Source: Candidatus Woesearchaeota archaeon (GTDB taxonomy: Archaea; Nanobdellota; Nanobdellia; Woesearchaeales; DSVV01). Taken from it: a DNA stretch of 64,000 bases. This document shows, piece by piece, positions 1,100-52,927 of this stretch (its first letter is position 1; each line of letters starts with the position of its first letter). Below the pieces are notes generated by a model, which was not told where the DNA came from, made no database searches, and saw only the letters and a list, made by a program, of their open reading frames with translations. Location: contig JACRKF010000033.1 of the NCBI GenBank assembly GCA_016219865.1, positions 123,954-187,953 on the forward strand. Reading direction: 5' to 3'. A program made the position numbers and the translations under genes.

Positions 1100-2719
1100 A
1101 TGCCAGAACCTCGCCCAGTTGAAGAAGCAAATGAACCAAATGAACCATTACGAAGAGACTTCTCATTATTGGAAGAAACAGCAAAAGGCGCAGCAAGTTT
1201 TCTAGGATTAGTTGCCCGATTTGCAACAAGCGCAGAAGATATTGTTCAAGGCTTGCGTTTGGAAAAGCATGAAAGAGAAGCAGAAATTGATTTTGCTGAT
1301 TACATTTGCCAAGATTTATTGCAGGACGATACAATCACGCAGCAATTATTCACTGATGTTCTCACAGGATATTTGAACGAAGTGCCGAATGATTTGTATA
1401 TTGTTGGATTTCACGAAACAAGCTATGGCCGTGGTCAAGCATTGCGAGATCAAGATCCAATTGCAAGAAACATTTCTTCATACGATTTTCAGATAAATGC
1501 ATGGAAATCAAAATTATATCATGATAAAAAAGCAAATATTGACAGAGTAATTGCTGATCTTGAAACTCGATTGCAGACTCTTATTCAGCAAGAAAGAAGA
1601 AATACAGTTGAAGAAGTTGGCTCATTATTTTCAGCAGATGCATTTTCTTTGTTATTAATAGAAGGAATGCATGTCAATGGAGATTTGCGAGGAAGTTTAG
1701 CTGTATTGAAAAAGAAAATGTATTTTGCAGCAGCTTTTGAATACAAAGAAGATCCAGAACTATTATACAGATTATCATTCAATGCCTGCGTCAAAGCAAA
1801 AGGCTGGCAAACATTGGAAGACAAACCATTGTATGAAGCATTGGAAGCAGAAGATGTTTCAGTTGAAGTTTTTGAAAAATGGACTGGCAGAAAAATTAAT
1901 TATAACCCAAAACCAGAAGCAAAGCAAAAAACAGTTGCTGATGTTATTCATGCACAAGGTGCAGATCCGCCAAGAAAAGCTTCGATTGCATTAGTCCATG
2001 AATTCCTGCCTAGTCAATCAACCTACGCGCAAGGTGTTCATGCATTGAGAGCTTCATACAATGGAAAAGAAGCAGAGATTCCGCAGCATATGCTTTATAG
2101 AACAAGTGCTGGAGTAAGACTTATCCGTCCACAAACATTAGAAGAAGCAATGCTTGCTCGTATCAATGATTTTGATACACTTCAAGATTCAAATGGCAAG
2201 CAAAGAACAATGGAAGAACGATTGAGATTGTGGGATAAACTAATTGATACTTGTGCAGGAGTTGCTTATGAAAACGGTAACAATGAACATTTTAAACTTA
2301 GCAGCATTTGTGAACCATTGATTACAATACCGCAAGATTTCAGAAACGCTTTTTTAGATGTAAATTATGCAGCTTTTGATGGCATCCAATTAGCAAGAAC
2401 TGCATATTACTACAAAAGATTATCAGAGCAAGAGTTTGATCTTTGTGAAGCATGGCAGCTGCTTTTACCAGATCAAACTGCAAGAACAAGATTGAAACAA
2501 ATAGTCTATCATCAAGCTAAAAACCAACAAGAACAGCTGTTAATTGCAGATAATGACAAAAAAGCATTAGGGTTTTATCTAGTAAATAATTCAGATAGAG
2601 ACCAACTGAGGAGCGTGTTTGTGAGCAGTCGTAATAACTACTCGGATGCGTATGGCGTCAATCTCAACGGCAGCTCGTCCGTTTTGCGAGCGACTCCCCC
2701 ATCGTCAAAAAAATTTTAG
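1100..2719 (+). CDS. DGR target protein (539 aa), with the variable repeat in its last ~35 codons
   Basis: Intact ORF. Its C-terminal ~97 nt is near-identical to a second copy ~230 nt downstream of its stop (the TR). Mismatches concentrate at TR adenines. A DGR-type RT gene follows. Confidence 0.75.
   Translation: MPEPRPVEEANEPNEPLRRDFSLLEETAKGAASFLGLVARFATSAEDIVQGLRLEKHEREAEIDFADYICQDLLQDDTITQQLFTDVLTGYLNEVPNDLYIVGFHETSYGRGQALRDQDPIARNISSYDFQINAWKSKLYHDKKANIDRVIADLETRLQTLIQQERRNTVEEVGSLFSADAFSLLLIEGMHVNGDLRGSLAVLKKKMYFAAAFEYKEDPELLYRLSFNACVKAKGWQTLEDKPLYEALEAEDVSVEVFEKWTGRKINYNPKPEAKQKTVADVIHAQGADPPRKASIALVHEFLPSQSTYAQGVHALRASYNGKEAEIPQHMLYRTSAGVRLIRPQTLEEAMLARINDFDTLQDSNGKQRTMEERLRLWDKLIDTCAGVAYENGNNEHFKLSSICEPLITIPQDFRNAFLDVNYAAFDGIQLARTAYYYKRLSEQEFDLCEAWQLLLPDQTARTRLKQIVYHQAKNQQEQLLIADNDKKALGFYLVNNSDRDQLRSVFVSSRNNYSDAYGVNLNGSSSVLRATPPSSKKF
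2604..2700 (+). repeat. DGR variable repeat (VR), encoding ...LRSVFVSSRNNYSDAYGVNLNGSSSVLRAT
   Basis: Aligns with TR at 2929-3030. VR bases g/c/t sit opposite TR 'a' at at least 13 positions; only 2 non-A mismatches, near the 3' end. Confidence 0.75.
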
Positions 2720-2928
2720 GACATTTTTTCCAAAAAGTTTATAATAACATGAATTTAATTCTTTCTTGAGCCTTGCCATCGTTCCTCTGCAAAGGACTTT
2801 GGAAACGTGCTTGGGAGTTACAGGCTCTTTCACTAAGGTTTTATTCCAGCTGGAGTAAAATCATAAAATACAGCTCCGACTTGATGCTCTGCACTGAAGG
2901 AGCAGTGCTCAGAAGAAGTGAAAGGGCT

Positions 2929-3030
2929 ACTGAGGAGCGTGTTTGTGAAAAATCGTAATAACAACTCGAATGCGAATGGCAACAACAATCTCAACAACAG
3001 CTCGTCCTTTTTGCGAATAACACAAGCATC
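2929..3030 (+). repeat. DGR template repeat (TR); AAY (Asn) codon-rich in the VR reading frame
   Basis: In frame it reads LRSVFVKNRNNNSNANGNNNLNNSSSFLRIT. It is one codon longer than VR, and its 3' end diverges (an IMH-like, GC-richer segment is present only in VR). Confidence 0.7.
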
Positions 3031-3222
3031 AAGGCTTATTATTAAAATTATGTTGGTATTTTTTATGCAATCTTCAGAATCTTTGTATGAACAATTATGT
3101 TCTTATCAAAATCTTGAATTGGCATTCAAAAAGCAAGAAAAAGAAAAACAACAAAATTATATGTTCTGGAATTTGAGAAAGATCTTAAAGAGAATCTTCT
3201 TCAATTACAAGCTGAATTAGTA

Positions 3223-4272
3223 TTGCATTCATATCGTCCAGAAAAATTGGAAACTTTTATTCTTCGTGATCCTAAAACAAGAAAGATAAGCAAATCACAT
3301 TTTAGAGACAGAATTGTGCATCATGCATTGTGTAATATAATCCAAACATTATTTGAAAATAGCTTTATTCATGATTCTTATGCAAACCAGATTGGAAAAG
3401 GAACACTAAAAGCAATACAAAGGTTTGATGAATTTAAGATAAAGATTACAAAGAACAATACAAGAATTGCTTTTGTGTTAAAATGCGACATAAAGCAATA
3501 TTTTGATAATGTTGATCATAATATTTTACTATCAATTATTAAGAGAAAGGTTTCTGATAGAAAAATACTATGGCTCATCGAAACAATTCTTTCAAATTAC
3601 TGCTCAAAAGAGCATAGTAAAGGAATGCCATTAGGCAATTTAACTTCTCAGTTCTTCGCAAATGTATATCTCAATGAACTTGACCAATTTGTGAAGCATG
3701 AATTAAGAGCAAAGTACTACCTGCGCTATGTTGATGATTTTGTTATTTTCGATAATTCTAAGAGAAGATTAGAGCAGTATAAAGCAGTAATTCAGATTTT
3801 CCTTAAGCAAGAATTACAGCTTCAATTGCATCCATTAAAATCAAGAATAATAACAATAAGAGATGGGACTGAATTTTTGGGTGTAAAAATATTTATGCAC
3901 CACAAAAGGATAAGGAAGAAAAATCTGCGGAAATCTCAGAAGAAATTGCAATTGCTAAATAATTTATACGAGCAAAAGAAAATAGACTATGATAATATCT
4001 ACGAGTTCCTTGAAGGCTGGATTGCCTATACAAGAAACGCAAACACTTATAAGTTAAGGAAAAGCATTATTAATTCAGTTGAGCAGAGATTTGGAATGAT
4101 TGCAACGAGAGAAGTCAATAGACATATTAAGAAATTCTATCCCTTTCCAATCCTCTCTAGCACAGCTTTTATCACAAATGGCAGCGCAACAGTTGCATCA
4201 ATCAACACTTCTGCATACCTTCCGCCTTTACTCTCTGGAATAAACTTTCCCCAGCTGACACCTTCACTATAA
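3223..4272 (+). CDS. DGR-type reverse transcriptase. The track ORF starts at 3223; the N-terminal RT0 segment appears to be encoded upstream in another frame (~3050-3160).
   Basis: Motifs FRDRIVHHALCNI, PLGNLTSQFFANVYLNELD (the [I/L]GxxxSQ motif that separates DGR RTs from group II intron RTs, which have QGxxxSP) and YLRYVDDFVIF (YxDD). Frame +1 upstream of 3223 reads ...YVLEFEKDLKENLLQLQAEL but has no start codon. The +2 frame upstream reads ...ESLYEQLCSYQNLELAFKKQEKEK, like the canonical RT N-terminus. Confidence 0.8.
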   Translation: MHSYRPEKLETFILRDPKTRKISKSHFRDRIVHHALCNIIQTLFENSFIHDSYANQIGKGTLKAIQRFDEFKIKITKNNTRIAFVLKCDIKQYFDNVDHNILLSIIKRKVSDRKILWLIETILSNYCSKEHSKGMPLGNLTSQFFANVYLNELDQFVKHELRAKYYLRYVDDFVIFDNSKRRLEQYKAVIQIFLKQELQLQLHPLKSRIITIRDGTEFLGVKIFMHHKRIRKKNLRKSQKKLQLLNNLYEQKKIDYDNIYEFLEGWIAYTRNANTYKLRKSIINSVEQRFGMIATREVNRHIKKFYPFPILSSTAFITNGSATVASINTSAYLPPLLSGINFPQLTPSL

Positions 4273-6410
4273 GTGCAACCACTATTAGATACAATGATGC
4301 CATTTGCTGCAAAATTATGGGTATTATCGACAGTCATATCATACGTTTCTTCTTCTCCATAATATTCAATAGACATAATAAAATGGTTTTCAACGCAATT
4401 CTTTCTAATCCAATTTTTATCAATTGTATATCGCTTTAATCTTTTATGCAACACTTTATCACTAACACCTAAATTTCGAGCTGTTTTAGTTATAACTCCA
4501 TGGTCTTTTATAAGTGCATCCTTTACTTTATCCTCAGTTATTCCTTTGATCCATCTACCATTTTTTTCATGAGATACAATTATAGATCGCATTTCAGGAG
4601 AAAGGGAAGCCCAACGCATTGCTGTTGAAGCATGTGCATTTTGTAATCTTATTTTTCTTTCTACATCATTAAGTGAGCTCCAGTATTTCTTAGATACTTT
4701 TGACCTTCTTTCTGGTTCTCCATTATTAAGAGCAATAATTTTTCTCTGATTGCATAATCTTTCATATTCTTCATCACTTAAATTATCCCAGAATTTTCGA
4801 GACATTCTCTGCATAATATAAGGATCGCAAATTTCTCGGAGTGTTTGTGCTCTTTTTTCTAAAGTTTCTTTTGACTCATTGAAGCGGTGGTATCTTGCAT
4901 GTTCTATAAAATTCAACATTTCAAGATTTTCAAGAGAATTATTTAATGTATTATGATCTTTGTGGTGAACTGCAATTTTTGCATCAATTGAAATTCCTGC
5001 CGTTTCTTGTAAAATAAATCTATGTTCTGCTAATTTTGTACCATTATTTAAACTAATAAAGCGATAATCACCATGTTTGTCAGTTTTATAGTATGAATTA
5101 AATGGCATTAACCTATCATTAATTTTCAATTCAGATACTTTTTTATAAACACCTTTACGAAGCAGAAATTTATGGTCTTCAGAAGCTATAATTGAATTAG
5201 TCTTCAGCTCTTGTTTTTTATTTACCCATCCTGTAACCCAGCCATAACTAATTTTATACAAACTTTTTTTACCTGTTTCCAAGACACCACGTACATTTGC
5301 TAATATTATTCTTTTCTTATTTAAATCATAAGAATATACAGGAAAATTTGATTTTCCAGCTAAATTTTTAATAGGTATGCCATCTGGATAAATTGATAAG
5401 TTTCTTGGCATATCTATTTTTGTATCACCCTGCAGGCAAAGTCCGCCGAAATTTACAGGTTCTGGGCATATTCTTACGCCATAAGAAAATTGTTTATGAT
5501 ATTTTTCAGCATCTTTTTGCAATGCAGGATTTGGTTCAATAACCCGCAATCGAATGATGTCTAAATGCGGTCCAACTTGTTGCGCCCAATTTCTTGGCAC
5601 TCCACCGCCAACAGTAAAAATACCTATCTTCTTTGCTTTCAAAACTCGTTCTGTGTAATCAGTCATATCAATAAATGGATCATATTTTAACAATTGTTTT
5701 TCTTCAGCAGCATTCTTCTTATTATACACTGAAAACTCCAATCCAAATTCAGAATCAGTAAATGCTGGAATATACACTGGAATGTTTTTCTCAAATGCAG
5801 ATTTCAATATACCTCTTCCATTGATATGTTTATGCAAGTATCGTCCTAGTTCCTTATTGATCTCTGAACTGCACGTTATTTTATTATGGTCCATGCTTGC
5901 AAGCACTTGGTGTAGGATCACAGCGCCTTCATCCAAATTTGTTTCTGATTCAAGCGTATCATATACTCTATCAAATCCAGCTTCATACAATTCTTCATCA
6001 TTAAAATTTTTTGGATTTTTAAAATGCGTCATTCCAGCAGCTTCAATAAATCCATGCGCCATCAATGCGCCAGTTGACACAACAGCATCAACCATATCAT
6101 TTTCAATCATATCGCAGATAACCAATCCCATCTTTGCCATAGTCATTGCGCCAGAAAGCGTTAATACTTTAAAGCACTCTTTATCTTTTGTCATTGCCTC
6201 AAGCACATTTGCAGCTTCTCCAATCTCTCTGCCGCCAAATGCTGTCAGATTCATCTGTGTAACAACATCATTGACTGTCTTGCATTGGGATAAGTCTAAT
6301 GGTTTCAATGGAACAAGATTTTTGACAAATTGCTCTCGAAACTCTCTGCTATGTCTGCCGTTCATTTTGTCATGTTGAATATGCATTTCATGTTTTTTGA
6401 TTGGAATCAC
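4137..6410 (-). CDS. dys: deoxyhypusine synthase, interrupted by an intein of ~385 aa
   Basis: N-extein has the DHS motifs (LTLSGAMTMAKMGL.., AVVSTGALMAHGFIEAAG, TVGGGVPRNW). C-extein reads SGCTYSEGVSWGKFIP (the active-site Lys region). Between them sits CLQGDTKI...HNFAANGIIVSN with an HNH-like block (HHKDHN...H) and an HTH. Confidence 0.8.
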   Translation of the reverse strand: MIPIKKHEMHIQHDKMNGRHSREFREQFVKNLVPLKPLDLSQCKTVNDVVTQMNLTAFGGREIGEAANVLEAMTKDKECFKVLTLSGAMTMAKMGLVICDMIENDMVDAVVSTGALMAHGFIEAAGMTHFKNPKNFNDEELYEAGFDRVYDTLESETNLDEGAVILHQVLASMDHNKITCSSEINKELGRYLHKHINGRGILKSAFEKNIPVYIPAFTDSEFGLEFSVYNKKNAAEEKQLLKYDPFIDMTDYTERVLKAKKIGIFTVGGGVPRNWAQQVGPHLDIIRLRVIEPNPALQKDAEKYHKQFSYGVRICPEPVNFGGLCLQGDTKIDMPRNLSIYPDGIPIKNLAGKSNFPVYSYDLNKKRIILANVRGVLETGKKSLYKISYGWVTGWVNKKQELKTNSIIASEDHKFLLRKGVYKKVSELKINDRLMPFNSYYKTDKHGDYRFISLNNGTKLAEHRFILQETAGISIDAKIAVHHKDHNTLNNSLENLEMLNFIEHARYHRFNESKETLEKRAQTLREICDPYIMQRMSRKFWDNLSDEEYERLCNQRKIIALNNGEPERRSKVSKKYWSSLNDVERKIRLQNAHASTAMRWASLSPEMRSIIVSHEKNGRWIKGITEDKVKDALIKDHGVITKTARNLGVSDKVLHKRLKRYTIDKNWIRKNCVENHFIMSIEYYGEEETYDMTVDNTHNFAANGIIVSNSGCTYSEGVSWGKFIPESKGGRYAEVLIDATVALPFVIKAVLERIGKG
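4284..5438 (-). mobile_element. intein, with an HNH-type homing-endonuclease-like domain, inside the deoxyhypusine synthase gene
   Basis: Starts with Cys (CLQGDT, block A) at residue 325. Ends ...NGIIVSN followed by Ser (+1) at residue 710. With the intein removed, the extein junction reads NFGGL|SGCTYSEGVSWGK, which is collinear with DHS. Confidence 0.7.
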
Positions 6411-7398: not shown

Positions 7399-7543
7399 TA
7401 ATAGTTCAAATAGGTGCTTCTTAGTTTCCATACGTTTTACATAAAGAAATTTGTTAGGATATCAACATGTGATTTTGGCGAAGGCAGTAGGCTGAGCCCA
7501 GAACCCCACAATAATTGTGCGGAATAGATATTCAATAAAAGTA

Positions 7544-7629
7544 AGCCTCAGGGAAGAGTTGAACTCCCGACCTGCGCTTCTCTAGTTAATCATTACGAGA
7601 GCGCCGCTCCACCACTGAGCTACTGAGGC
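7544..7629 (-). tRNA. tRNA-Thr (anticodon CGU) with a 14-nt intron at the canonical 37/38 position
   Basis: Reverse complement: GCCTCAG-TA-GCTC-AGTGGTGGA-GAGC-G-GCGCT-CTCGTA[atgattaactagag]A-AGCGC-AGGTC-GGGAG-TTCAACT-CTTCC-CTGAGGC-T. All four stems pair; U33 and A37 are present; the intron sits after position 37. Confidence 0.7.
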
Positions 7630-7650
7630 AGTTTTTAAGAAAAAAGGCTA

Positions 7651-7667
7651 TATATTAATAATGTTTT
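7651..7667 (-). promoter_or_regulatory. putative archaeal TATA box / BRE for the tRNA-Thr gene
   Basis: On the minus strand, ..gcgaaaacaTTAATATATAgcc.. lies ~22-31 nt upstream of the tRNA 5' end. Confidence 0.35.
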
Positions 7668-7683
7668 CGCAATTTCTATTAAT

Positions 7684-7721
7684 AATATTTCTCGTGTGAG
7701 TGAAACGAACTCAGAAATATT
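7684..7721 (+). repeat. HP1 hairpin repeat, copy a
   Basis: AATATTTCT-cgtgtGAGTGAAACGAACtc-AGAAATATT. Confidence 0.5.
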
Positions 7722-7882
7722 AAATCTGCTTAACCATCTCATCTTTATTGTTCATAAACTTACTCTGGCACTGAAAACAAACAGTATGTTTTTTTCCATT
7801 TACATCCTTAACATAAGTGCCAATTAACTTTTTCAAGAATATTTCTTCTATCTTACCCTTGCATATTTCACATTTCATCATG
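7721..7882 (-). CDS. small C4 zinc-ribbon protein (53 aa), not in the ORF track
   Basis: Reverse complement gives MMKCEICKGKIEEIFLKKLIGTYVKDVNGKKHTVCFQCQSKFMNNKDEMVKQI, with two CxxC pairs. It sits in a gap that would otherwise be empty. Confidence 0.4.
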
Positions 7883-7935
7883 TTTAACCTCGCTTATTGA
7901 TAAATTTATCTATTGATAAAGAAATATAAAAATAA

Positions 7936-8385
7936 TTAATTTATTTCTTCTTCATTAATATTGTCGTGATTATCAGATTCTTCATCATCAACTTCTTCAG
8001 ACTCTTTTTCTGTTGTATCATCAATCTCTTCTTCTTCATCAACACCAATTGGTTTTGAAGACTTTACTGATTCTTCTGTTAAATTTGCTTTGCCTACGAT
8101 TTCTAACTGTCCAAATTTGCCAGTTGATAACTGAAGTTCTCCTTGCCATTCATTAACATAGCCGTTTGTTATTTTTATTTTATCACCAATCTTTACTTTC
8201 TCAACTTGATCATTCCATAATGTCATAGTTGTTTGTCCAGTTTCATCTTTTATCTTAATATTGCATAATTTTCCAGGATTACCAAACTTTTGGAATTCCC
8301 TTGGAGCTGCTTTCTCAACAACATCGACAGTAATATCAACTTTTCCTTGTTTTGGCTGTAAATCTTTAATTTGCATAATTCTCAC
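7936..8385 (-). CDS. OB-fold nucleic-acid-binding protein (SSB/RPA-like) with an acidic C-terminal tail
   Basis: 149 aa. Beta-rich N-terminal domain (..GKLCNIKIKDETGQTTMTLWNDQ..) and a D/E-rich tail, typical of archaeal SSB/RPA-like proteins. Confidence 0.55.
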   Translation of the reverse strand: MRIMQIKDLQPKQGKVDITVDVVEKAAPREFQKFGNPGKLCNIKIKDETGQTTMTLWNDQVEKVKIGDKIKITNGYVNEWQGELQLSTGKFGQLEIVGKANLTEESVKSSKPIGVDEEEEIDDTTEKESEEVDDEESDNHDNINEEEIN

Positions 8386-8506
8386 CTTAATTATTGGAGT
8401 AATTGTAGATTTATAAAGATTAGTATTTTCGTGCTGTGTTGCATAAATAATAAACTATTATTTATGCAACACAGCATTTTTATACACCTCTCTCTTTCTT
8501 TGTAAT

Positions 8507-9211
8507 ATGCAGACAAAACTTCCTGGTGGTCAGATAACAAAATCTCTTAAACAATATTGCAGAAAACACAACATCACAAAAGCAGTATTAGGTGTCTCTG
8601 GGGGGATCGATTCAGCACTATGCGCAGCAATTGCAGTAAAAGCATTAGGACCTCAAAACGTAACAGCTTTGCTGCTTCCAGAAAAAGGAGTCACAAAAAA
8701 GCAGAATGTGGAAGATGCACTGCAATTGTGTAAGCAACTAAAAATTAATTATATTCTGCAACCAATTAATCCAATACTTAACACATATCTAAAAAATAGT
8801 GCATTCCCTCTAAACAATCTTGCAAAAATTAATCTCAAAGCAAGGATAAGAGCAACAATTCTTTACAGCTGCGCAAATACAAATAATGCAATTGTCATAG
8901 GCACAGGAAATAAGACCGAATTAACATTAGGCTACTTTACAAAATATGGTGATGGTGCTGTTGATATTCTGCCAATTGGTAATCTCTATAAGCAGCAAGT
9001 CAAAGAAATAGCATCCTTTCTAAAAGTCCCGCAACAAATTATTGACAAAAAGCCTACTGCAGAATTATATCGTGAACAAACAGACGAGCAAGAATTAGGC
9101 ATGAGTTATGAAGAACTTGATCATCGTTTACAAACAAATAAACTCACAACAGAGATAAAACAAATAATCAAGAAGAATCTGCACAAAACAAAACCAATAC
9201 CAATATTATAA
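8507..9211 (+). CDS. nadE: NH3-dependent NAD+ synthetase
   Basis: VLGVSGGIDSA (PP-loop), GTGNKTELTLGYFTKYGDGAVDILPIG, KKPTAELYREQTDEQELGMSYEELD. Confidence 0.85.
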   Translation: MQTKLPGGQITKSLKQYCRKHNITKAVLGVSGGIDSALCAAIAVKALGPQNVTALLLPEKGVTKKQNVEDALQLCKQLKINYILQPINPILNTYLKNSAFPLNNLAKINLKARIRATILYSCANTNNAIVIGTGNKTELTLGYFTKYGDGAVDILPIGNLYKQQVKEIASFLKVPQQIIDKKPTAELYREQTDEQELGMSYEELDHRLQTNKLTTEIKQIIKKNLHKTKPIPIL

Positions 9212-9240
9212 GAGAATTTTGCATTTTCGCAAAATTCTCT
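9211..9240. repeat. PAL2 palindrome, copy 2 (abuts the nadE stop codon)
   Basis: AGAGAATTTTGC-attttc-GCAAAATTCTCT. Confidence 0.55.
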
Positions 9241-9278
9241 GCAAAAGCTTTATTAACCTTCTTTTATTCTAAAACCAT

Positions 9279-11033
9279 ATGACACGAATAGCTATAGTCA
9301 GAAGAGATCGTTGCAGTCCTCAAGCATGTGGTAACTATCTTTGTATTCGTGTTTGTCCTGTGAATAAGCAAGGCGCTGATTGCATTGTTAAGGGATTAGA
9401 TACAAAAGCTCAAATTATTGAAGAAACATGCATTGGTTGCAATATTTGTGTTGTAAAATGTCCATTTGATGCAATTTCCATTATTAATCTTCCTGAACAA
9501 TTAGATAATTCACCTATCCATCGATTTGGAACAAATAAGTATGCATTATACTCGCTCCCAACACCAATTTTTGGTAAAGTTGTAGGTATTGTTGGAATGA
9601 ATGGAATTGGTAAATCAACTGCAATAAAAATTCTTGCAGGATTATTGCAGCCAAATCTAGGAGAAACAACAGCAGTTGATTACAAGAGAATAATTGATTT
9701 TTTCAAAGGCACAGAAACACAAGCATTTTTCGAGAAAGTAAAGCAAGATAAAATCAAAATCTCTTACAAACCTCAGCATGTGGATTTAATTCCAAAAACA
9801 ACATCTGGAAAAGTAATTGATCTTCTCAAGAAAGTTGACGAAAAGAATCAAACAGAAAAGATAGCGGAATTGCTTGATATTCAATCTATCTTGCAGCATG
9901 ATATAAAACAGATTTCAGGTGGAGAATTGCAGCGTGTTGCAATAGCTGCATGCGTGTTAAGAAGAGCAAATCTTTATGTTTTTGATGAACCAACTTCATA
10001 CTTAGATATTAATCAGCGACTGCAGATTGCAAGATTCATTAAAGATTTAGCAAATGAAGATACAGCTGTTATTGTTATTGAACACGACTTGATTGCATTA
10101 GATTACATGGCAGATGTAGTTCATATCATGTATGGAAAAGAAGGTTGTTATGGCATTGTATCTCAGCCAAAAGCTGCAAAAGCTGGCTTAAACACATACT
10201 TAGAAGGATTTCTCAAAGAAGAGAATATGCGATTTAGGGAATTGCCAATTAAATTTGAGATAAAAGCTCCTTTTTCAACAGCAAGAAAACAATGTTTAAC
10301 TTCATGGAATAATTTTGATAAACAACTTGATAAGTTTAAACTTTCTGTGAATGCAGGAGAAATTTACAAACAAGAAATTATTGGTATTCTTGGACAAAAT
10401 GGTATTGGAAAAACAACATTTGTCAAGATTCTTGCAGGAATCATGGAACCAGATGATGCAAAGATAGATCTAAAAATGAAAGTTTCTTACAAGCCGCAGT
10501 ATATAGAGAATAATTCAGAAGAATTAGTAATCAATATTCTTCATCAAGCTATTGCAAAATACAGCAATGAGATTATTAAGCCATTAGAACTTGAGCCATT
10601 ATTTACAAAGCAGATAAATCAATTATCAGGTGGAGAATTGCAGAGAGTTGCTATAGCAGAATGTTTAGCAAGAGATGCAACTTTATTCTTACTTGACGAA
10701 CCATCTGCATACTTGGATGTAGAACAAAGATTATCTCTTTCAAAAATAATGCGTAATCTTGTTGAGACAAAAGCAATTACATTGCTTGTTGTTGATCACG
10801 ATTTATTATTCTTAGATTATCTAAGTGATAGATTGCTTGTTTTTACAGGTGCGCCTTCATTTGCTGGAACTTCACAAGGGCCATTTGCAATGGAGCAAGG
10901 CATGAATACATTATTGAAAGAAGTTAATATCACATTAAGAAGAGATGAATTCTCAGGAAGACCAAGAATTAACAAACCAGGGTCGCAATTGGATAGGGAG
11001 CAAAAACAAACAGGAAAATATTATTATGGTTGA
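9279..11033 (+). CDS. abcE1: ABCE1 / RNase L inhibitor-type ribosome recycling ATPase
   Basis: N-terminal Fe-S cluster domain (CSPQACGNYLCIRVCP ... CIGCNICVVKCP), then two ABC cassettes (GMNGIGKST / GQNGIGKTT; LSGGELQRVAIA twice). Confidence 0.9.
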   Translation: MTRIAIVRRDRCSPQACGNYLCIRVCPVNKQGADCIVKGLDTKAQIIEETCIGCNICVVKCPFDAISIINLPEQLDNSPIHRFGTNKYALYSLPTPIFGKVVGIVGMNGIGKSTAIKILAGLLQPNLGETTAVDYKRIIDFFKGTETQAFFEKVKQDKIKISYKPQHVDLIPKTTSGKVIDLLKKVDEKNQTEKIAELLDIQSILQHDIKQISGGELQRVAIAACVLRRANLYVFDEPTSYLDINQRLQIARFIKDLANEDTAVIVIEHDLIALDYMADVVHIMYGKEGCYGIVSQPKAAKAGLNTYLEGFLKEENMRFRELPIKFEIKAPFSTARKQCLTSWNNFDKQLDKFKLSVNAGEIYKQEIIGILGQNGIGKTTFVKILAGIMEPDDAKIDLKMKVSYKPQYIENNSEELVINILHQAIAKYSNEIIKPLELEPLFTKQINQLSGGELQRVAIAECLARDATLFLLDEPSAYLDVEQRLSLSKIMRNLVETKAITLLVVDHDLLFLDYLSDRLLVFTGAPSFAGTSQGPFAMEQGMNTLLKEVNITLRRDEFSGRPRINKPGSQLDREQKQTGKYYYG

Positions 11034-11047
11034 ACGATGATTGAATT

Positions 11048-11803
11048 ATGGTTGAGTTTCAAGAAACAAGAACTAAAGAAATCTTTGGAGAAAAGAAGAC
11101 AGATAATACTATCTTATATTATTCGTTGATGATTATAACTGTCCTTGTTCTTTTCTTGTTTATCATTTTGGCAAATTATAAAAATTCTATCTACAACTTT
11201 CCATTCTATAAATATGAATATGAGAAAAATGGAATCTACACAAAATTTGACAAAGCAATAGTAGATAATGCAACAATTAATCTTTTCCTCTATCTGAATA
11301 ACAATCAAGAAAATATCACCTCTCAATTTTTTTCAGAGCGTGATAAACTGCACTTAATTGATGTAAAACATCTTATAAAACTTTCAAAGATAGTTTATGC
11401 TATAGTTTTGATTTTATTCCTTTTATCATTATTTGCGCTATTTTATTTTTATAAACACAAATTCAAGAAATCATTTGCAAAGATTCTTATTATTGCATCA
11501 TTGCTATACATTATCATATTCATAGCAATAGCAGTAAATCAGACAAATGAAACATTTCAAAAGAAGTTCATTGATATTCACTACACTCTCTTTGATAATG
11601 ATTATTGGATCTTAGATCCTGAGAAAGATAATCTGATTAACTTGTTCCCTCAGCAATTTTGGTATGATATTGTGGAGAAGATTCTTAAGGATACTTTGTT
11701 GTATGCAATATTTCTATTGATAATAGGGGTAAATATATTTATTTATGTTTATTTAAAAAATAAATTTTTCACGGCAAAGAATAAAAGCAATAGTATCCAT
11801 TAA
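11048..11803 (+). CDS. hypothetical polytopic membrane protein
   Basis: Several long hydrophobic segments; no recognisable catalytic motifs. Confidence 0.5.
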   Translation: MVEFQETRTKEIFGEKKTDNTILYYSLMIITVLVLFLFIILANYKNSIYNFPFYKYEYEKNGIYTKFDKAIVDNATINLFLYLNNNQENITSQFFSERDKLHLIDVKHLIKLSKIVYAIVLILFLLSLFALFYFYKHKFKKSFAKILIIASLLYIIIFIAIAVNQTNETFQKKFIDIHYTLFDNDYWILDPEKDNLINLFPQQFWYDIVEKILKDTLLYAIFLLIIGVNIFIYVYLKNKFFTAKNKSNSIH

Positions 11804-11826
11804 CCACATTAGTAGTCATAATTATA

Positions 11827-11863
11827 GTATTTTCTGAGTGAGCGAAGCGAACTCGGAAATACT
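11827..11863 (+). repeat. HP1 hairpin repeat, copy b
   Basis: AGTATTTTC-tgagtGAGCGAAGCGAACtcg-GAAATACT, followed by aaagCTTTAAATAg (TATA-like). Confidence 0.5.
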
Positions 11864-11948
11864 AAAGCTTTAAATAGTTATTCGTCATTCTGAAATTTCA
11901 TATAGCTATTAAAAAATAAAAAATTCAAGAAGAATAAGCGGTGATACA

Positions 11949-12185
11949 ATGTTATCTTATAAATTATTCACAACTCCAACCTGTGTTTATTGTCCTAAGG
12001 TAAAGGAATTTATGAAGACAGTAACATTAATCGGAGAATCAATTGATGCTTCTACTCCAGAAGGTTTTGAGTTAGCAAAAAAGTTTGAAGTTAGTTCTGT
12101 GCCGACAGTCTTATTCTTTGAAGATGATAAATTAGTTGGAACAACGCACAAAGTTGATGAAATAAAAAAGTTTTTGAGTATATAA
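11949..12185 (+). CDS. glutaredoxin/thioredoxin-like small redox protein (CxxC)
   Basis: 78 aa; N-terminal TCVYCP motif and a C-terminal ..VPTVLF.. thioredoxin-fold signature. Confidence 0.6.
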   Translation: MLSYKLFTTPTCVYCPKVKEFMKTVTLIGESIDASTPEGFELAKKFEVSSVPTVLFFEDDKLVGTTHKVDEIKKFLSI

Positions 12186-12404
12186 TCTAGATATTTCATA
12201 CAGTTAATCCAGTTAATCAATAGTTATAAAATTCTTGTCTCCTATCTTTGAAAATGTCATTATATTCATTGATCATTTTATTGATGTTGTAGACTGATAA
12301 TTTCTTATCTCCTGAAGAAAACCAAAGTTTTTCTTTATTGAATAAATGAATTTTTCTATAAGTATCGATTACTTTATTCTTCTTTTATTTATATTACTTG
12401 GCTT

Positions 12405-12442
12405 AGTTTTTCATGTGTGAGCGTAGCGAACACTGAAAAACT
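12405..12442 (+). repeat. HP1 hairpin repeat, copy c
   Basis: AGTTTTTCA-tgtgtGAGCGTAGCGAACac-TGAAAAACT. Confidence 0.5.
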
Positions 12443-12444
12443 AT

Positions 12445-15057
12445 TCATATTTCTGTATTCGTGCTTCCATGATACGCAACAGGAGAACTTCCACCGTGCC
12501 AGCTTATTCTTGGTCGTATTTTCATCGCATACATTCTTTCATTAGTGTCATCAAAGATAATTGCTGCACCAAATGTGCGCGGCAAATTATCTAATTGTGT
12601 AGTTAATCCTTCTCGCATATAACTTTGCATTAACGTTCCAAGTGCTTCTGTATCGAGTTTTGCTGTTATTCTATGGCTGATAACAGTATCGCTTTGTGTC
12701 ATGACATCTGTATGGATTTTTCCTGGCTGTTGTGTTGCTAAGATTAAAGAAATTCCAGGTTGTCTGCCTTCTCTAAGGATTGTAATTAAAGCATCGCTTG
12801 CTGCAGTTTTTCCAATGACTGGCAAGAACTCATGCGCTTCATCAATAACAAGCCAAACCATTGGCATATCTTGTTTTTCTTGTGGAGTCTCACTAAAATA
12901 ATGCAGCGCTGAATTTACTTGACCAAACTCCTCAAACTTTCTTGCAATCATTCTTTGAACGAATAATTTCTGCGCAATCAATCCAACAACAAGGCTTTTT
13001 ACAGCCCATCCACCTGGCATTGTTGCATAGCATGATACATCAAGAACAGTTACTTGACCCCCAGCAGCTAACTCTAAGAAAGGAGTTCCTTCTTTATCAA
13101 AAAGTCCCCATGATATTGTGTTCAAGAATCTATTTTCAACTGCATCTCGCACTGATTTCTCAGCATTAGTATCTTTTTTTACAGCAGCAATGATATCTTC
13201 AATTCCATAATCTATATTTTGTTCTTTTAATTGATTGACAATCCGTTCGATAAGTACGCCCATAGGATCATTTGCTGTAACATCAAATGTAAGCTGCCAA
13301 TCAGTTGCATCTAACTCACTTGGTTTTATTGAAAAAGGTTTGTCTGTTGGAATTCCTTCTTTTACATATCTTTTATAAAATCCAGCTGGCGTGTATATCT
13401 TGATATCAATAGGTTTTGATTTTAATTGCCATTCTTTCAATATCAGCTCATCTTTTTTATTAGGATATTTCATTGTCCAATAAACACCCATTGTATCAAG
13501 AATGATGACACTAATATTCTGCTTAACTTCATCAGGAAGATCACTAACACCCTCAGCAATGACACCCATTGTATAAGAGTTATGGACGATGATATCGTTT
13601 GCGATAAAATTATGAGTATCAGAAACAGTTAAGTCATATACTTCAAAATTACCTTCGATTTGCTGAAGTGAGATTATTTCATCCCAAAATATATCAGATG
13701 ATGCAAATTTCATAAGTAATTCAAATTCATCAGCTCTTGCAATCTGAAGTAATTTCTGTCGAGATGGAGAATAGCGTTTACTTTCTCTTAATGCTTTTGG
13801 ATGTTTATAACCTATTTTTCTCCCGATCTCTGCCCAATTATTTGGTGCATATAGATCCCATATCTCTTTTGGAATTGTATCAACGTTAGTATTGCGTATT
13901 ACTTGTGGTGATTCTAGTAAAGCAAGAGCAGCTCTTTCTTCTTTTCGTCCATAAAAACCAATTTCATTGATAAATTGATTTACATATTCACCATTAATTA
14001 CCAATTCATAAGCCGTATGAATTTCTTTAATTGTCCTATGCCTTAAGAAAGAAATTATACCAAATCGTAGTAAGAGATGTTGTACTTGTATAATCATTTG
14101 ATATGATGAAGAGCAATAAGAAACAGTCCATGTGCATTCACTTTTTCTATAAATTGTTCCATCACAAGAGAAAAGTCTATTCAAAAACAAAGATAATTGG
14201 TATTTTGGAAGAGTATAGATACATTCAGGTATGAATTTTTCTGGAGCAAGTTTATCATAAAGATTAAACTTTTCTATCCAGCTTCTTATGGAAGAATGAT
14301 CAAAATGAGGATTATTTACAAATTGTCCTTTGTCATTTCTATCACTTTGTTCATTCATCACTTTCTTGATTTGTGCAACACGAAAACAAAATTCATGGCT
14401 ATGATTTTCAACACGAAGATTTTTATCAAAATCATAAATACTTTGTTTGAAGTCATTTATTATCTTTCTATCTGAATTAGTAAATAATACAAAACCATTG
14501 CCAAGATGACCTTCTGCTATTAGGTAAGCAAGCAATTTAACTTCTGATTCTTTGAGATATTTATTTCCGAATGTTTCAACCTTCCTGGGTGTAGCAATTC
14601 TTGATGAAATGGAGAGTTTCTCAGCAGGAATCCATCCTTTTACTGTAAGCAGAGGATGTTCTGGTGTTAATCTTATTTTCTTTCCTGTTCTTAATTCAAT
14701 CTCAAGAAGTCTTGTAACTGAACGTTTATAAAACTGTGTTTTTAAACCTTGTTTTATCTTTAAATCTTCTGATAAAGTATATATGCTTTCATTATTCTCC
14801 GCAAGATCTTTAATTTTTCTAACACTGCCATCTCCTAATGGGATAATTGTATCCCCATCAAGACATTTTCCCCCTCCCCTTTTACCAACGATAAACACAA
14901 CGTGAGATCGGATAACATCAAGATAAATATTATTAGATAAAGAGGTAGTTTGTCCCATCTGGATGTATTGTCTGCCTAAGAATATTACTCCTTTCTTGCC
15001 AAACTTCTTCAGTTCATCCTCTGTTCTTCCAATGACTACGTCAAACATAATTTTCAT
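12445..15057 (-). CDS. HerA/FtsK-superfamily (DUF87-like) ATPase, interrupted by a LAGLIDADG intein in the P-loop
   Basis: Walker A FIVGKRGGGK|[intein]|SYTMGVIAEG; Walker B/DEAH-like VWLVIDEAHEFLP. With the intein removed the protein is about 441 aa. Confidence 0.75.
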   Translation of the reverse strand: MKIMFDVVIGRTEDELKKFGKKGVIFLGRQYIQMGQTTSLSNNIYLDVIRSHVVFIVGKRGGGKCLDGDTIIPLGDGSVRKIKDLAENNESIYTLSEDLKIKQGLKTQFYKRSVTRLLEIELRTGKKIRLTPEHPLLTVKGWIPAEKLSISSRIATPRKVETFGNKYLKESEVKLLAYLIAEGHLGNGFVLFTNSDRKIINDFKQSIYDFDKNLRVENHSHEFCFRVAQIKKVMNEQSDRNDKGQFVNNPHFDHSSIRSWIEKFNLYDKLAPEKFIPECIYTLPKYQLSLFLNRLFSCDGTIYRKSECTWTVSYCSSSYQMIIQVQHLLLRFGIISFLRHRTIKEIHTAYELVINGEYVNQFINEIGFYGRKEERAALALLESPQVIRNTNVDTIPKEIWDLYAPNNWAEIGRKIGYKHPKALRESKRYSPSRQKLLQIARADEFELLMKFASSDIFWDEIISLQQIEGNFEVYDLTVSDTHNFIANDIIVHNSYTMGVIAEGVSDLPDEVKQNISVIILDTMGVYWTMKYPNKKDELILKEWQLKSKPIDIKIYTPAGFYKRYVKEGIPTDKPFSIKPSELDATDWQLTFDVTANDPMGVLIERIVNQLKEQNIDYGIEDIIAAVKKDTNAEKSVRDAVENRFLNTISWGLFDKEGTPFLELAAGGQVTVLDVSCYATMPGGWAVKSLVVGLIAQKLFVQRMIARKFEEFGQVNSALHYFSETPQEKQDMPMVWLVIDEAHEFLPVIGKTAASDALITILREGRQPGISLILATQQPGKIHTDVMTQSDTVISHRITAKLDTEALGTLMQSYMREGLTTQLDNLPRTFGAAIIFDDTNERMYAMKIRPRISWHGGSSPVAYHGSTNTEI
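13579..14865 (-). mobile_element. intein (~429 aa) with a LAGLIDADG homing endonuclease, inserted after the Walker A lysine
   Basis: Starts with Cys (CLDGDTIIPLGDG) and ends ..NDIIVHN followed by Ser (+1). LAGLIDADG-like blocks LAYLIAEGHLGNG and LFLNRLFSCDGTI. Confidence 0.75.
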
Positions 15058-15096: not shown

Positions 15097-15130
15097 ACTA
15101 AACGAGTGAAACGAGTTCGCAAATACTAAA
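15097..15130 (+). repeat. HP1 repeat, copy d (conserved loop core; stem imperfect)
   Basis: ..aaacGAGTGAAACGAGTTCGCAAATACTAAA, then CTTTATAAAC (TATA-like). Confidence 0.4.
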
Positions 15131-15166
15131 CTTTATAAACAAATCTCAATCCTAAAATCATCAAAG

Positions 15167-20948: not shown

Positions 20949-20992
20949 CCGGATTACCTAATTTTAGAGAATTTTGCAAAGCAAAATTCTCT
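20949..20992. repeat. PAL2 palindrome, copy 3, preceded by a CGGATTACCTAAT box
   Basis: ccGGATTACCTAATttt AGAGAATTTTGC-aaa-GCAAAATTCTCT. Confidence 0.55.
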
Positions 20993-38077: not shown

Positions 38078-38115
38078 AGTATTTTCTGAATGAACTAAGT
38101 GAATTCGAAAATACT
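38078..38115 (+). repeat. HP1 hairpin repeat, copy f
   Basis: AGTATTTTC-tgaatGAACTAAGTGAATtc-GAAAATACT. Confidence 0.5.
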
Positions 38116-41599: not shown

Positions 41600-41711
41600 T
41601 CGTATTAACTAAGCTTAAAAAAATGACGAACGAACCTCGTCAGCCCTTACGTGAGCTGGCGCCAAAACTTGGTGCGATTTCGTTTTACTCAATCGCACTA
41701 ACTGAATATAT

Positions 41712-52825: not shown

Positions 52826-52845
52826 TTAATTTTTTTCTCTTTTTT

Positions 52846-52868
52846 TTGCATTGTGAGGAGAATTTTAC
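52846..52868. repeat. PAL2-related palindrome, copy 6
   Basis: GAGGAGAATTTTACAAATTCTCC. Confidence 0.45.
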
Positions 52869-52927
52869 AAATTCTCCAAACAAGCAAAAAAATACATTTA
52901 TAAACCAAACACCATTTATCTCTTGTC

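What the first reader, a model, noticed from the sequence alone, without database searches (positions are those of the whole stretch)
11827..11863. HP1: a 10-copy family of intergenic hairpins with co-varying AT-rich stems and a conserved loop of tandem GARYGAA half-sites
There are ten copies, all in the same (+) orientation:
- a 7684-7721
- b 11827-11863
- c 12405-12442
- d ~15097-15130
- e 35449-35508
- f 38078-38115
- g 40326-40363
- h 41712-41736
- i 47224-47250
- j 55977-56012
They share a 14-20 nt core that looks like a tandem direct repeat GARYGAA-RYGAAY. Examples are GAGCGAA-GCGAAC, GAGTGAA-ACGAAC, GAACGAA-GTGAAC and GAGCAAA-GCGAAT. This includes the classic GCGAAGC mini-hairpin sequence.
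The core is enclosed by 7-12-bp stems whose sequences differ between copies but stay complementary. Stem pairs are AGTATTTTC/GAAAATACT, AATATTTCT/AGAAATATT, AGTTTTTCA/TGAAAAACT, AGTATTTGC/GCAAATACT, AAAAAGC/GCTTTTT and ATAAATTC/GAATTTAT. Compensatory stem changes with a conserved loop argue for selection on a folded single-stranded structure (RNA or ssDNA), not a duplex-DNA operator.
Eight of ten lie 17-160 nt upstream of a +strand start codon, often just 5' of TATA-like CTTTAAATA / TTTATAAA boxes. Copies c and a instead sit beside 3' ends of minus-strand genes. Candidate roles are a protein-binding 3'-end or processing element on the upstream transcript, a promoter-associated structured element, or a REP/MITE-like dispersed repeat. 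The strict orientation bias (10/10) is itself notable. I cannot assign this family to any known repeat or RNA class from the sequence alone.
Basis: seen in the sequence. Interest (0 to 1): 0.65.

Follow-up and report, generated by a model that had tools for sequence, protein, structure and literature searches.

The report
Hairpin repeat anchored upstream of archaeal promoters
A 38-base hairpin-forming DNA repeat, conserved across several DPANN (Woesearchaeota-like) archaeal genomes, sits in one fixed orientation a few bases upstream of the TATA box of roughly one gene in six, so it looks like a new structured promoter-upstream element, not an RNA 3'-end signal or an ordinary repeat.

Summary
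All ten copies exist, and a covariance model scores them at 36-57 bits.

The "loop of tandem half-sites" is not a loop. The hairpin continues through a 9-bp outer stem, a bulged T, a 4-bp inner stem, an invariant tandem G.A/A.G, 2 covarying bp and a GAA triloop. Across 57 distinct copies from the window, two Woesearchaeota MAGs and 37 metagenome contigs, 95% of stem cells pair, against 78% when shuffled. Orthologous copies differ by compensatory double changes.

Position is the key result. 41 of 46 copies with a co-oriented downstream gene have a TATA box 2-26 nt past their 3' arm, and the ATG usually follows about 30 nt later. In divergent intergenic regions 13 of 14 face "their" promoter. 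The distance to the upstream stop codon is loose.

Downstream genes are diverse: EF-1alpha, IF5B, ribosomal proteins, SecY, a tRNA and envelope genes. G.T wobble is no commoner than A.C. Copies within a genome are no more alike than copies between genomes.

My best reading, at confidence about 0.45, is an anciently dispersed REP-like palindrome kept as a polar, DNA-level promoter-upstream element bound by an unknown conserved factor. It matches no Rfam family and I found no literature on it.

The parts
7684..7721 (+). HP1 copy a (long type). It is in reverse polarity to its neighbours. Its right arm overlaps the stop codon of the minus-strand 53-aa Zn-ribbon ORF (7720-7881). It lies about 28 nt from the TATA box of the minus-strand tRNA (7544-7629).
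   Evidence: 53.8 bits; sequence and ORF; mirrored TATA at 22 nt
11826..11863 (+). HP1 copy b, the finding's own copy: AGTATTTTC-T-GAGT-GA-GC-GAA-GC-GA-ACTC-GGAAATACT. The TATA box TTTAAATA at 11869-11876 lies 5 nt downstream, followed by a thioredoxin-like gene at 11949.
   Evidence: 57 bits; NCBIfam
12405..12442 (+). HP1 copy c, lying between convergent genes. Its right arm is 3 nt from the stop codon of the minus-strand HerA gene. There is no TATA box to its right, but a TATA-like box lies 10 nt to its left on the minus strand.
   Evidence: 52.4 bits
15088..15127 (+). HP1 copy d, with a degenerate left arm and a longer bulge. It lies in a divergent intergenic region. TATA TTTATAAA at 15132-15139 is 4 nt downstream and belongs to a PpiC-type isomerase gene.
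   Evidence: 36 bits
35449..35488 (+). HP1 copy e (long type), with outer stem TTTTTTTGC/GCAAAAAAA and a 4-nt loop.
   Evidence: 42.2 bits
35490..35512 (+). Short-type copy e2: AAAAAT-GA-AC-GGA-GT-GA-ATTTTT. It spans the region from the TATA-like box to the start of the HAD phosphatase gene.
   Evidence: Core with 6-bp continuous stem
38078..38115 (+). HP1 copy f. TATA-like TTATTAAT at 38127-38134 is 11 nt downstream, and the ATG at 38158 follows 31 nt after that (PMT-type glycosyltransferase).
   Evidence: 52.6 bits
40326..40363 (+). HP1 copy g, with bulge A and inner stem TTGT/ACAA. TATA TTTATAAA at 40369-40376 is 5 nt downstream, and the ATG at 40400 follows 31 nt later (DegT-type aminotransferase).
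   Evidence: 55.5 bits
41710..41738 (+). Short-type copy h: ATAAAAAGC-GAACGAAGTGA-GCTTTTTAT. Its left arm coincides with a TATA-like box, and an SD (Shine-Dalgarno) sequence and ATG (41752) follow directly.
   Evidence: 41.1 bits; 9-bp stem
41672..41698 (-). Minus-strand short-type copy: GTGCGATT-GA-GT-AAA-AC-GA-AATCGCAC. It lies back to back with h. Near-identical stems occur in L141 7228 with compensatory core changes.
   Evidence: 20.5 bits
47219..47253 (+). Short-type copy i, with a 12-bp stem ATTCATAAATTC/GAATTTATGAAT. It overlaps the ATG at 47248 of a radical SAM gene, and its left arm is TATA-like.
   Evidence: 38.8 bits
55976..56013 (+). HP1 copy j. TATA TTTAAATA at 56036-56043 is 22 nt downstream, followed by the 2200-aa protein gene at 56170. 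The copy is conserved in place in metagenome contig L121, with a compensatory apical change.
   Evidence: 49.5 bits; alignment A4
52841..52892 (+). Variant copy. It has HP1 outer and inner stems (TTTTTTTGC-A-TTGT ... ACAA-GCAAAAAAA), but the apex is replaced by a longer hairpin, GGAGAATTT-TAC-AAATTCTCC.
   Evidence: 22.2 bits

Best explanation
HP1 is a dispersed family of imperfect palindromes, 38-40 bp in the long type. It occurs about once per 5-6 kb in this window. It must have spread by copying, but it is now old and held in place by selection. I propose that it acts on DNA as a polar promoter-upstream element.

**Shown**
- Its 3' arm, on the strand carrying the GA...GA bases, lies 2-16 bp upstream of the BRE (TFB recognition element)/TATA box of a co-oriented gene. 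That places the element at roughly -35 to -85 from the start site, outside the mRNA.
- Both the ability to pair and the few unpaired bases are under selection. The unpaired bases are the tandem G.A/A.G, the GAA loop and the bulged T.

**Inferred**
- A conserved, lineage-specific factor recognises the element asymmetrically. It may bind the duplex, or more likely the hairpin that the GA strand forms when the palindrome extrudes under the negative supercoiling behind a promoter.
- From that position the factor either stimulates recruitment of TFB/TBP or shields the promoter from neighbouring transcription.
- The minority of short-type copies place the same GA-RY-GAA-RY-GA tip between TATA and the start site. 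There the same factor would be expected to repress.
For: **TATA adjacency**
- A TATA-like octamer lies within 2-26 nt of the right end in 41 of 46 copies that have a co-oriented downstream gene.
- The figure is 0 of 11 for copies facing the end of an opposing gene, and 14 of 55 on the mirrored left side, which serves as background.
- The TATA-to-ATG distance is 29-33 nt in 19 of 39 cases, as expected for leaderless archaeal promoters.

**Polarity**
- In 14 divergent intergenic regions, 13 copies have the TATA box on the right and 4 on the left.
- L148 has two back-to-back copies, each 13 nt from its own TATA box and 44 nt from its own ATG.
- In tandem contexts the orientation is 26 co-oriented to 5 reversed (p=2e-4). 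The median distance from the upstream stop to HP1 is 56 nt, against 11 nt from HP1 to TATA (Wilcoxon p=9e-5).

**Structure under selection**
- 95.3% of stem cells pair and there are 154 double-change cells.
- Orthologous copies upstream of the same gene differ by compensatory doubles. The KH-protein gene pair (L065 and L005, 54.6% aa identity) has 3, and the giant-protein gene pair (window j and L121, 69.8% aa identity) has 1.

**DNA rather than RNA**
- Copies in divergent regions are intact and cannot belong to a 3' UTR.
- T.G occurs 10 times and A.C/C.A 12 times in stems.

**Old and constrained, not recently mobile**
- Mean identity among window copies is 56%, against 63-66% between the window copies and those of the other two genomes. 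No two window copies are identical, and copy b is 97% identical to a copy in a 49%-GC genome.

**General rather than a regulon**
- Downstream genes include aEF-1alpha, aIF5B, L44e, S17e, SecY, PyrG, a KH protein, an intron-containing tRNA and envelope genes.
Against: - No binding factor has been identified and there are no expression or footprint data. Activation versus insulation is a guess.
- The spacing to the TATA box is variable (2-26 nt, with modes at 4-5 and 12-16). That is looser than known archaeal activator sites that touch TFB/TBP.
- A duplex-binding protein would not need the arms to covary, and cruciform extrusion has not been shown for these sequences. The nearest-neighbour DNA model gives both strands similar hairpin energies (-10.4 against -10.0 kcal/mol).
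- About 20% of copies (11 of 57) have no promoter on their right. Seven of these abut the stop codon of an opposing gene within -2 to +5 nt, which this model does not explain.
- In tandem contexts the element may also be transcribed at the end of the upstream mRNA, so an added RNA role is not excluded.
- Gene calls in the loci come from a crude ORF picker, and the loci were chosen because they contain a copy.
Confidence: 0.45

Rival explanations
1. HP1 is an RNA element. It would be transcribed at the end of the upstream gene, or in read-through RNA, and would act as a 3'-end stabiliser, a processing site or a protein-binding hairpin (tandem G.A plus triloop) on that transcript.
For: - The pattern of covarying Watson-Crick pairs around invariant G.A/A.G and a purine-rich loop is what structured RNAs look like.
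- 26 of 50 placed copies follow a co-oriented gene.
- Seven reversed copies start within -2 to +5 nt of an opposing gene's stop codon.
- A few short-type copies lie directly upstream of an SD sequence and ATG.
Against: - 14 intact, high-scoring copies lie in divergent regions with no upstream co-oriented gene. In window d and in L148 there is no room for another promoter.
- Position is tied to the downstream TATA box, not to the upstream stop codon.
- There is no excess of G.U-type pairs over A.C.
- No U-tract follows the hairpin.
- The element has no 3-nt bulge next to the G.A pairs, so it is not a K-turn.
- There is no Rfam match.
Confidence: 0.15
2. HP1 is a selfish, REP- or MITE-like miniature mobile element. 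It would be mobilised in trans, for example by an HUH/Y1-type enzyme that recognises a single-stranded DNA hairpin. It has no host function, and its position reflects only where insertions are tolerated or targeted.
For: - More than 60 copies of a specific 38-nt sequence can only have arisen by copying.
- Presence/absence differences exist at orthologous spacers. L121 3303 and L118 555 have no counterpart in the window.
- Back-to-back inverted pairs occur, like REPIN/BIME doublets.
- The hairpin has a bulged base and conserved unpaired bases, as in REP and IS200/IS605 ends.
- Variant copies have an expanded apex.
Against: - No two copies are identical, and within-genome identity is no higher than between-genome identity.
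- Copies are retained in place, with compensatory changes, between genomes whose orthologous proteins are only 55-70% identical.
- The polarity towards the TATA box (41 of 46, and 13 of 14 in divergent regions) needs selection or a very unusual targeting mechanism.
- There are no target-site duplications. The flanks are complementary (T..A or C..G), not direct repeats.
- No GTAG or CGTC tag is present.
- No transposase was found in the window by Pfam. A remembered IS608 TnpA sequence found no Y1 transposase in 352 kb, a weak test.
- The strict motif has zero hits in viral contigs.
Confidence: 0.15
3. HP1 is a boundary element. A bound protein, or the hairpin itself, would stop RNA polymerase arriving from the neighbouring gene, so that a compact genome's promoters are not run over. 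Adjacency to the TATA box would then reflect protection rather than activation.
For: - The element always sits between transcription units.
- In reversed copies it abuts the stop codon of the incoming gene.
- It lies directly in front of promoters.
- This would suit a genome whose median tandem spacer is 52 nt.
Against: - Divergent regions need no protection from an upstream gene, yet they carry the element most often (19%, against 13% of tandem and 7% of convergent regions).
- Convergent regions, where collisions matter most, carry it least.
- Polarity with respect to the promoter would not be needed for a hairpin roadblock.
Confidence: 0.15

Closest known systems
Bacterial REP elements and REPIN/RAYT systems
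   Same: - Both are 20-40-nt imperfect extragenic palindromes present in many copies.
- Stems keep pairing while their sequence varies.
- A bulge or mismatch gives the element an orientation.
- Inverted doublets occur.
- Both must spread by copying.
   Different: - HP1 is archaeal.
- It has no GTAG or CGTC tag, and no associated RAYT was found.
- It is anchored upstream of promoters, not at 3' ends or between convergent genes.
- There are no near-identical copies within a genome.
- The same sequence is kept across genomes ranging from 31% to 49% GC.
Archaeal upstream activator sites (for example Ptr2/Lrp sites, TrmBL1 TGM when upstream of BRE/TATA, GvpE UAS); from my own knowledge
   Same: - Both lie immediately upstream of BRE/TATA.
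- Both are palindromic.
- The rule that position decides effect would also fit the short-type copies that lie between TATA and the start site.
   Different: - Known sites are 10-20 bp, belong to specific regulons and show no arm-to-arm covariation.
- HP1 is 38 bp, occurs at diverse housekeeping promoters and is constrained as a hairpin.
- HP1 is polar and has variable spacing to the TATA box.
Neisseria Correia elements and other promoter-bearing MITEs; from my own knowledge
   Same: Both are small dispersed inverted-repeat elements in intergenic DNA that influence or accompany promoters.
   Different: - Correia elements are 100-155 bp with TA target duplications, and they carry promoter hexamers themselves.
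- HP1 carries no TATA box of its own. There is none beside copies that lack a downstream gene (0 of 11).
- HP1 has no target-site duplication.
d(GCGAAGC) mini-hairpin and hairpin promoters of phage N4; from my own knowledge
   Same: - The commonest HP1 apex is GCGAAGC closed by sheared G.A pairs, a motif known to be unusually stable in DNA.
- N4 shows that a DNA hairpin extruded from supercoiled DNA can be a promoter signal.
   Different: - N4 hairpins sit at about -11 and are read by a phage polymerase.
- HP1 is centred at about -55 to -65 from the start, in a cellular archaeal genome.
K-turn / K-loop RNA motifs bound by L7Ae
   Same: Both have tandem sheared G.A/A.G pairs flanked by helices.
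   Different: - HP1 has no 3-nt bulge adjacent to the G.A pairs. It has a symmetric 2x2 internal loop and a single bulged base 4 bp away.
- Most copies lie outside transcribed regions.

Membership tests
REP / REPIN-RAYT | Short imperfect extragenic palindrome in many copies | tested here: met
   13 copies in 64 kb; all 64 model matches to the window and related loci (57 distinct sequences) are intergenic
REP / REPIN-RAYT | Conserved GTAG or CGTC tetranucleotide at one end | tested here: not met
   The ends read (T/C)AGTATTT...AAATACT(A/G), with no GTAG or CGTC. The feature is defined in PMC3733652.
REP / REPIN-RAYT | Cognate single-copy RAYT (Y1 HUH transposase), often flanked by REPs | tested here: inconclusive
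   No transposase domain in window proteins. tblastn with a remembered IS608 TnpA sequence found nothing significant in 352 kb, and the best hit is an IDI (isopentenyl-diphosphate isomerase) gene. Whole genomes were not available.
REP / REPIN-RAYT | Population of near-identical copies around a master sequence | tested here: not met
   Maximum identity within the window is 84% and the mean is 56%, no higher than between genomes
MITE | Terminal inverted repeats flanked by a direct target-site duplication | tested here: not met
   The flanking bases are complementary (T..A, C..G) and extend the stem; they are not direct repeats
Intrinsic terminator / 3'-UTR hairpin | Follows a co-oriented gene and is followed by a U/T tract | tested here: not met
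   14 of 50 placed copies have no upstream co-oriented gene. T5+ runs are no commoner after the element than before it (7 of 24 each).
K-turn / K-loop (L7Ae-binding RNA) | Tandem G.A/A.G pairs | tested here: met
   GA...GA is invariant in 56-57 of 57 copies
K-turn / K-loop (L7Ae-binding RNA) | 3-nt bulge directly 5' of the G.A pairs on one strand | tested here: not met
   The G.A pairs are flanked on both sides by Watson-Crick pairs. The only bulge is 1 nt, 4 bp away.
Archaeal upstream activator / operator site | Located just upstream of BRE/TATA of the regulated gene | tested here: met
   41 of 46 copies have a TATA box 2-26 nt downstream, and the ATG follows about 30 nt later
Archaeal upstream activator / operator site | Bound by an identified transcription factor that changes promoter output | not testable with these tools
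   No binding or expression data are available
Integron attC | R''/R' ends RYYYAAC...GTTRRRY and an adjacent integrase | tested here: not met
   The ends are AGTATTT/AAATACT. No integrase is present in the window.
Any Rfam family | Covariance-model match | tested here: not met
   No hit on any copy at gathering threshold over the whole window, nor at E<=1 over 7400-12500, which holds copies a, b and c

The most novel reading that the evidence does not exclude
HP1 would be a structure-dependent promoter element. The palindrome extrudes as a DNA hairpin or cruciform under the negative supercoiling behind an active promoter. A conserved, lineage-specific "general regulatory factor" reads the GA-strand hairpin (tandem G.A, GAA tip, bulged T). 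The bound factor then sets or buffers the output of about one promoter in six, including those of EF-1alpha, ribosomal proteins, SecY and tRNA. This would be an archaeal counterpart of FUSE/FBP-type supercoil sensing or of yeast GRF sites, built from a domesticated REP-like repeat.
Probability: 0.2. Interest if true: 0.85.

Novelty: new variant of a known kind. Interest (0 to 1): 0.66.

Why it matters
From my own knowledge, archaeal promoters are described as BRE, TATA, initiator and proximal element, plus gene-specific factor sites. No general, structured upstream element is known.

HP1 is a 38-bp hairpin-constrained, polar element sitting in front of diverse housekeeping promoters. It is conserved between DPANN genomes whose orthologous proteins are only about 55% identical.

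- It would give a handle on transcription control in organisms that cannot be cultured.
- It would be a rare case in which DNA secondary structure upstream of a promoter is under clear purifying selection.
- It would also show a REP-like repeat fixed for a promoter role in archaea.
- In practical terms, the covariance model marks promoters and transcription-unit starts in these MAGs.

Tried and rejected
1. **Loose genome contigs pattern**. An arm-complementarity score separated true members (7-8 of 8 pairs) from chance hits (2-4). Only the Woesearchaeota-type MAGs were real.
2. **L015, a CPR bacterium, 33.7 bits.** Its genes are bacterial S5-L15-SecY. I treat the hit as a chance survivor of a 596-Gb pattern scan.
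3. **Viral contigs.** The strict motif has 0 hits.
4. **Replication-linked orientation.** OapB/OapC and the GC-skew minimum at about 22-24 kb suggest an origin. Copies on both sides are nevertheless on the plus strand, so I rejected this, with the caveat that the origin is only inferred.
5. **A specific regulon.** The window copies sit in front of envelope, glycosylation and redox genes. Other genomes put HP1 in front of translation, secretion and tRNA genes, so I rejected this.
6. **Direct-repeat reading of the core (ARYGA-ARYGA).** Rejected, because AC/GT and GT/AC cores fit pairing and not repetition.
7. **A TATA box upstream of HP1 that would make it the 5' end of an RNA.** Only 14 of 62 copies have one at 15-36 nt. 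These are oddly enriched among orphan copies (6 of 11), which I leave unexplained.
8. **DNA folding of top against bottom strand.** The energies are similar, so this is not informative.
9. **Literature.** Searches for the motif sequence and for DPANN or Woesearchaeota palindromes found nothing relevant.
10. **The look-up of encoding contigs** for a window protein found nothing on record.

Full report
**Setting**

The window is AT-rich (about 31% GC) and archaeal. It encodes an RPA-type single-strand-binding protein, an intein-containing HerA, an MJ0307-type thioredoxin, RLI/ABCE1, deoxyhypusine synthase and OapB/OapC. Most hits fall below family cut-offs, which suggests a divergent lineage. 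Related DNA carrying the same repeat comes from MAGs labelled Candidatus Woesearchaeota.

All ten listed copies are in the sequence.
- The core pattern occurs 9 times against 0.97 expected.
- A covariance model built from the ten copies scores them at 36-57 bits when every position of the window is scanned. The next hit scores 22 bits.
- So 10/10 orientation is not strict.

**Anatomy**

For copy b the order is:

AGTATTTTC (outer stem, 9 bp) - T (bulge) - GAGT (inner stem, 4 bp) - GA - GC - GAA - GC - GA - ACTC - GGAAATACT

- In 57 distinct copies the two GA dinucleotides are invariant, and the loop reads (G/A)AA. The bulge is T in 51 of 57.
- The two RY dinucleotides pair with each other. GC/GC, AC/GT, GT/AC and AT/AT all occur, so they are not direct repeats.
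- Pairing is supported by covariation in the ten copies. 82.7% of cells pair, against 62.7% shuffled and about 40% in slid registers.
- It is supported more strongly in the 57 distinct copies. 95.3% pair against 78.4%, with 154 double-change cells against 42, and 13 of 15 pairs show changes on both sides.
- A minority "short type" (h, i, e2, 41672-41698 and a few in other contigs) keeps only the GA-RY-NAA-RY-GA tip on a continuous 6-12-bp stem of unrelated sequence.

**Distribution**

- A loose pattern scan of species-representative genomes was mostly noise. An arm-complementarity score picked out true members only in Woesearchaeota MAGs JAGVYW01 (32% GC) and JACQMZ01 (49% GC), plus two MAG contigs labelled Methanosarcinales. 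One of those two has an SSB gene 69% identical in DNA to the window's.
- A hit in a CPR bacterium is a chance survivor of the scan.
- A strict motif found 37 metagenome contigs and no viral contigs.
- No Rfam family matches, and text searches found no description of the element.

**Where the copies sit**

I used a simple ORF picker on 62 largely non-redundant copies, so gene calls are approximate. The contexts were:

| Context | Copies |
|---|---|
| Follows a co-oriented gene and precedes another | 26 |
| Divergent region | 14 |
| Convergent region | 5 |
| Reversed between two genes of the other strand | 5 |
| One neighbour missing (copy near a contig end) | 12 |

The decisive feature is what lies just past the 3' arm.
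- Of 46 copies with a co-oriented downstream gene, 41 have a TATA-like octamer 2-26 nt away, with modes at 4-5 and 12-16 nt.
- The ATG then lies 29-33 nt after the TATA start in 19 of 39 cases, the geometry of leaderless archaeal promoters.
- Controls: 0 of 11 copies that face the end of an opposing gene have such a box, and 14 of 55 have one on the mirrored left side.
- In the 14 divergent regions, where both sides hold a promoter, 13 copies have the TATA box on their right and 4 on their left.
- In L148, two back-to-back copies each face their own gene with identical geometry.
- In tandem contexts the orientation is 26 to 5 (p=2e-4). The element is right-justified: the median distance is 56 nt from the upstream stop and 11 nt to the TATA box (p=9e-5).
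- By region type, 19% of divergent, 13% of tandem and 7% of convergent spacers carry a copy. The loci were chosen for containing a copy, so only the ratios mean anything.

**What the downstream genes are**

In the window they are thioredoxin-like, PpiC-type isomerase, HAD phosphatase, PMT glycosyltransferase, DegT aminotransferase, a hydrolase, a radical SAM enzyme and a 2200-aa protein. That list hinted at an envelope regulon. In other contigs the element precedes aEF-1alpha, aIF5B, L44e, S17e, SecY, PyrG, a KH protein, RNase H and an intron-containing tRNA. It is therefore a general element.

**Evolution**

- The copy in front of the giant-protein gene (j) is conserved in place in contig L121. 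The DNA is 76% identical and the protein 69.8%. The apical pairs changed from GC/GC to AC/GT.
- The copies in front of a KH-protein gene in L065 and L005 (54.6% protein identity) differ by three compensatory doubles.
- Two other copies, L121 3303 and L118 555, both reversed or orphan, have no counterpart in the window.
- Copies in the window are on average 56% identical to each other and none are identical. They are 63-66% identical to copies in the other two genomes, and copy b is 97% identical to one in the 49%-GC MAG.
- This is the pattern of old copies held near a shared optimum, not of a recently active repeat. A 38-nt sequence can still only have reached dozens of sites by being copied.

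**RNA or DNA?**

The covariation says a single strand folds, or that the arms are kept complementary. Three things point away from RNA as the main level.
- Intact copies lie in divergent regions with no room for another promoter (window d, L148).
- The elements are anchored to the TATA box, not to the upstream stop codon.
- T.G pairs (10) are not commoner than A.C/C.A (12).

Nearest-neighbour DNA folding gives both strands similar energies, so it does not help. An additional RNA role in tandem contexts cannot be excluded.

**Mobile-element tests**

- The flanks extend the stem as complementary bases and do not form direct repeats.
- There is no GTAG or CGTC tag.
- The window has no transposase.
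- A remembered IS608 TnpA sequence found nothing in 352 kb. This is a weak test.

**Replication**

OapB/OapC and a GC-skew minimum near 22-24 kb suggest an origin. Copies on both sides are on the plus strand, so orientation follows promoters and not forks. This rests on an inferred origin.

**Conclusion**

HP1 is best described as an anciently dispersed, REP-like palindrome that is maintained as a polar promoter-upstream DNA element.

The position, polarity, pairing constraint, conservation and generality are shown. Three things are inferred: that a conserved factor reads it, that it may be read as an extruded hairpin, and that the effect is stimulation or shielding of the promoter.

Unexplained points remain.
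- About 20% of copies have no promoter on the right.
- Those copies fit tightly against opposing stop codons.
- TATA-like boxes lie 17-35 nt upstream of 6 of 11 such orphans.
- Hairpins at 23057-23096 and 52841-52892 share HP1 arms but carry other tips.

Noticed in passing
window 1100-4272: A diversity-generating retroelement. The target ORF (1100-2719) carries a variable repeat at 2605-2689, and the template repeat lies at 2929-3016, differing at adenines. A reverse transcriptase (RVT_1) lies at 3223-4272, and Rfam RT-16 RNA at 2787-2935 sits just upstream of the template repeat.
   Followed up: partly
window 9212-9240, 20967-20992, 26990-27015, 52970-52995; also L030, L049: A second hairpin family, GAGAATTTTGC-N3-6-GCAAAATTCTC. 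It is a near-perfect palindrome, is often preceded by CCGGATTGCCTAA, and is identical across genomes. Copies sit right after stop codons or between genes.
   Followed up: partly
window 23096-24618 (-) and 22908-23095: OapC, OapB and a GTPase lie at the cumulative GC-skew minimum, making this a candidate replication origin. The neighbouring spacers hold palindromes at 23057-23096 (HP1-type arms AGTATTTTG/CAAAATACT with a different tip) and 23539-23583.
   Followed up: partly
window 4137-6410 (-) and 12445-15057 (-): Inteins interrupt deoxyhypusine synthase (with an HNH endonuclease domain) and HerA.
   Followed up: no
window 51200-51233: The 34-nt element GAGCGGTAAATTAATTGCGAGGCAATTATGGCTT lies upstream of the gene at 51272. 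It is 97% identical to L049 4219-4252 in another genome and contains an AATTGC-GAGG-GCAATT hairpin.
   Followed up: no
window 7544-7629 (-): An 86-nt tRNA found by Rfam (52 bits) but not by ARAGORN. Its length suggests an intron or a long variable arm.
   Followed up: no
window 7720-7881 (-): An unlisted 53-aa CxxC...CxxC zinc-ribbon ORF. Its stop codon overlaps the last two bases of HP1 copy a.
   Followed up: partly
window 56044-56169 and L121: A leader of about 130 nt lies between the TATA box and the ATG of the 2200-aa protein gene. It is highly conserved with contig L121, more so than the flanking spacer, and may be a regulatory 5' UTR.
   Followed up: no
L119 11560-11960 (-): Two intron-containing tRNA genes that Rfam missed at its gathering threshold. 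The first is preceded by an HP1 copy and a TATA box.
   Followed up: partly
orphan HP1 copies: window a, window c, L049 4031, L050 4250, L121 3303, L135 1092: Six of the 11 copies that lack a downstream promoter have a same-strand TATA-like box 17-35 nt upstream of their 5' arm. Only 8 of 51 other copies do. This might mean that orphans start short antisense RNAs, or it may come from the neighbours' symmetric TATA boxes.
   Followed up: partly
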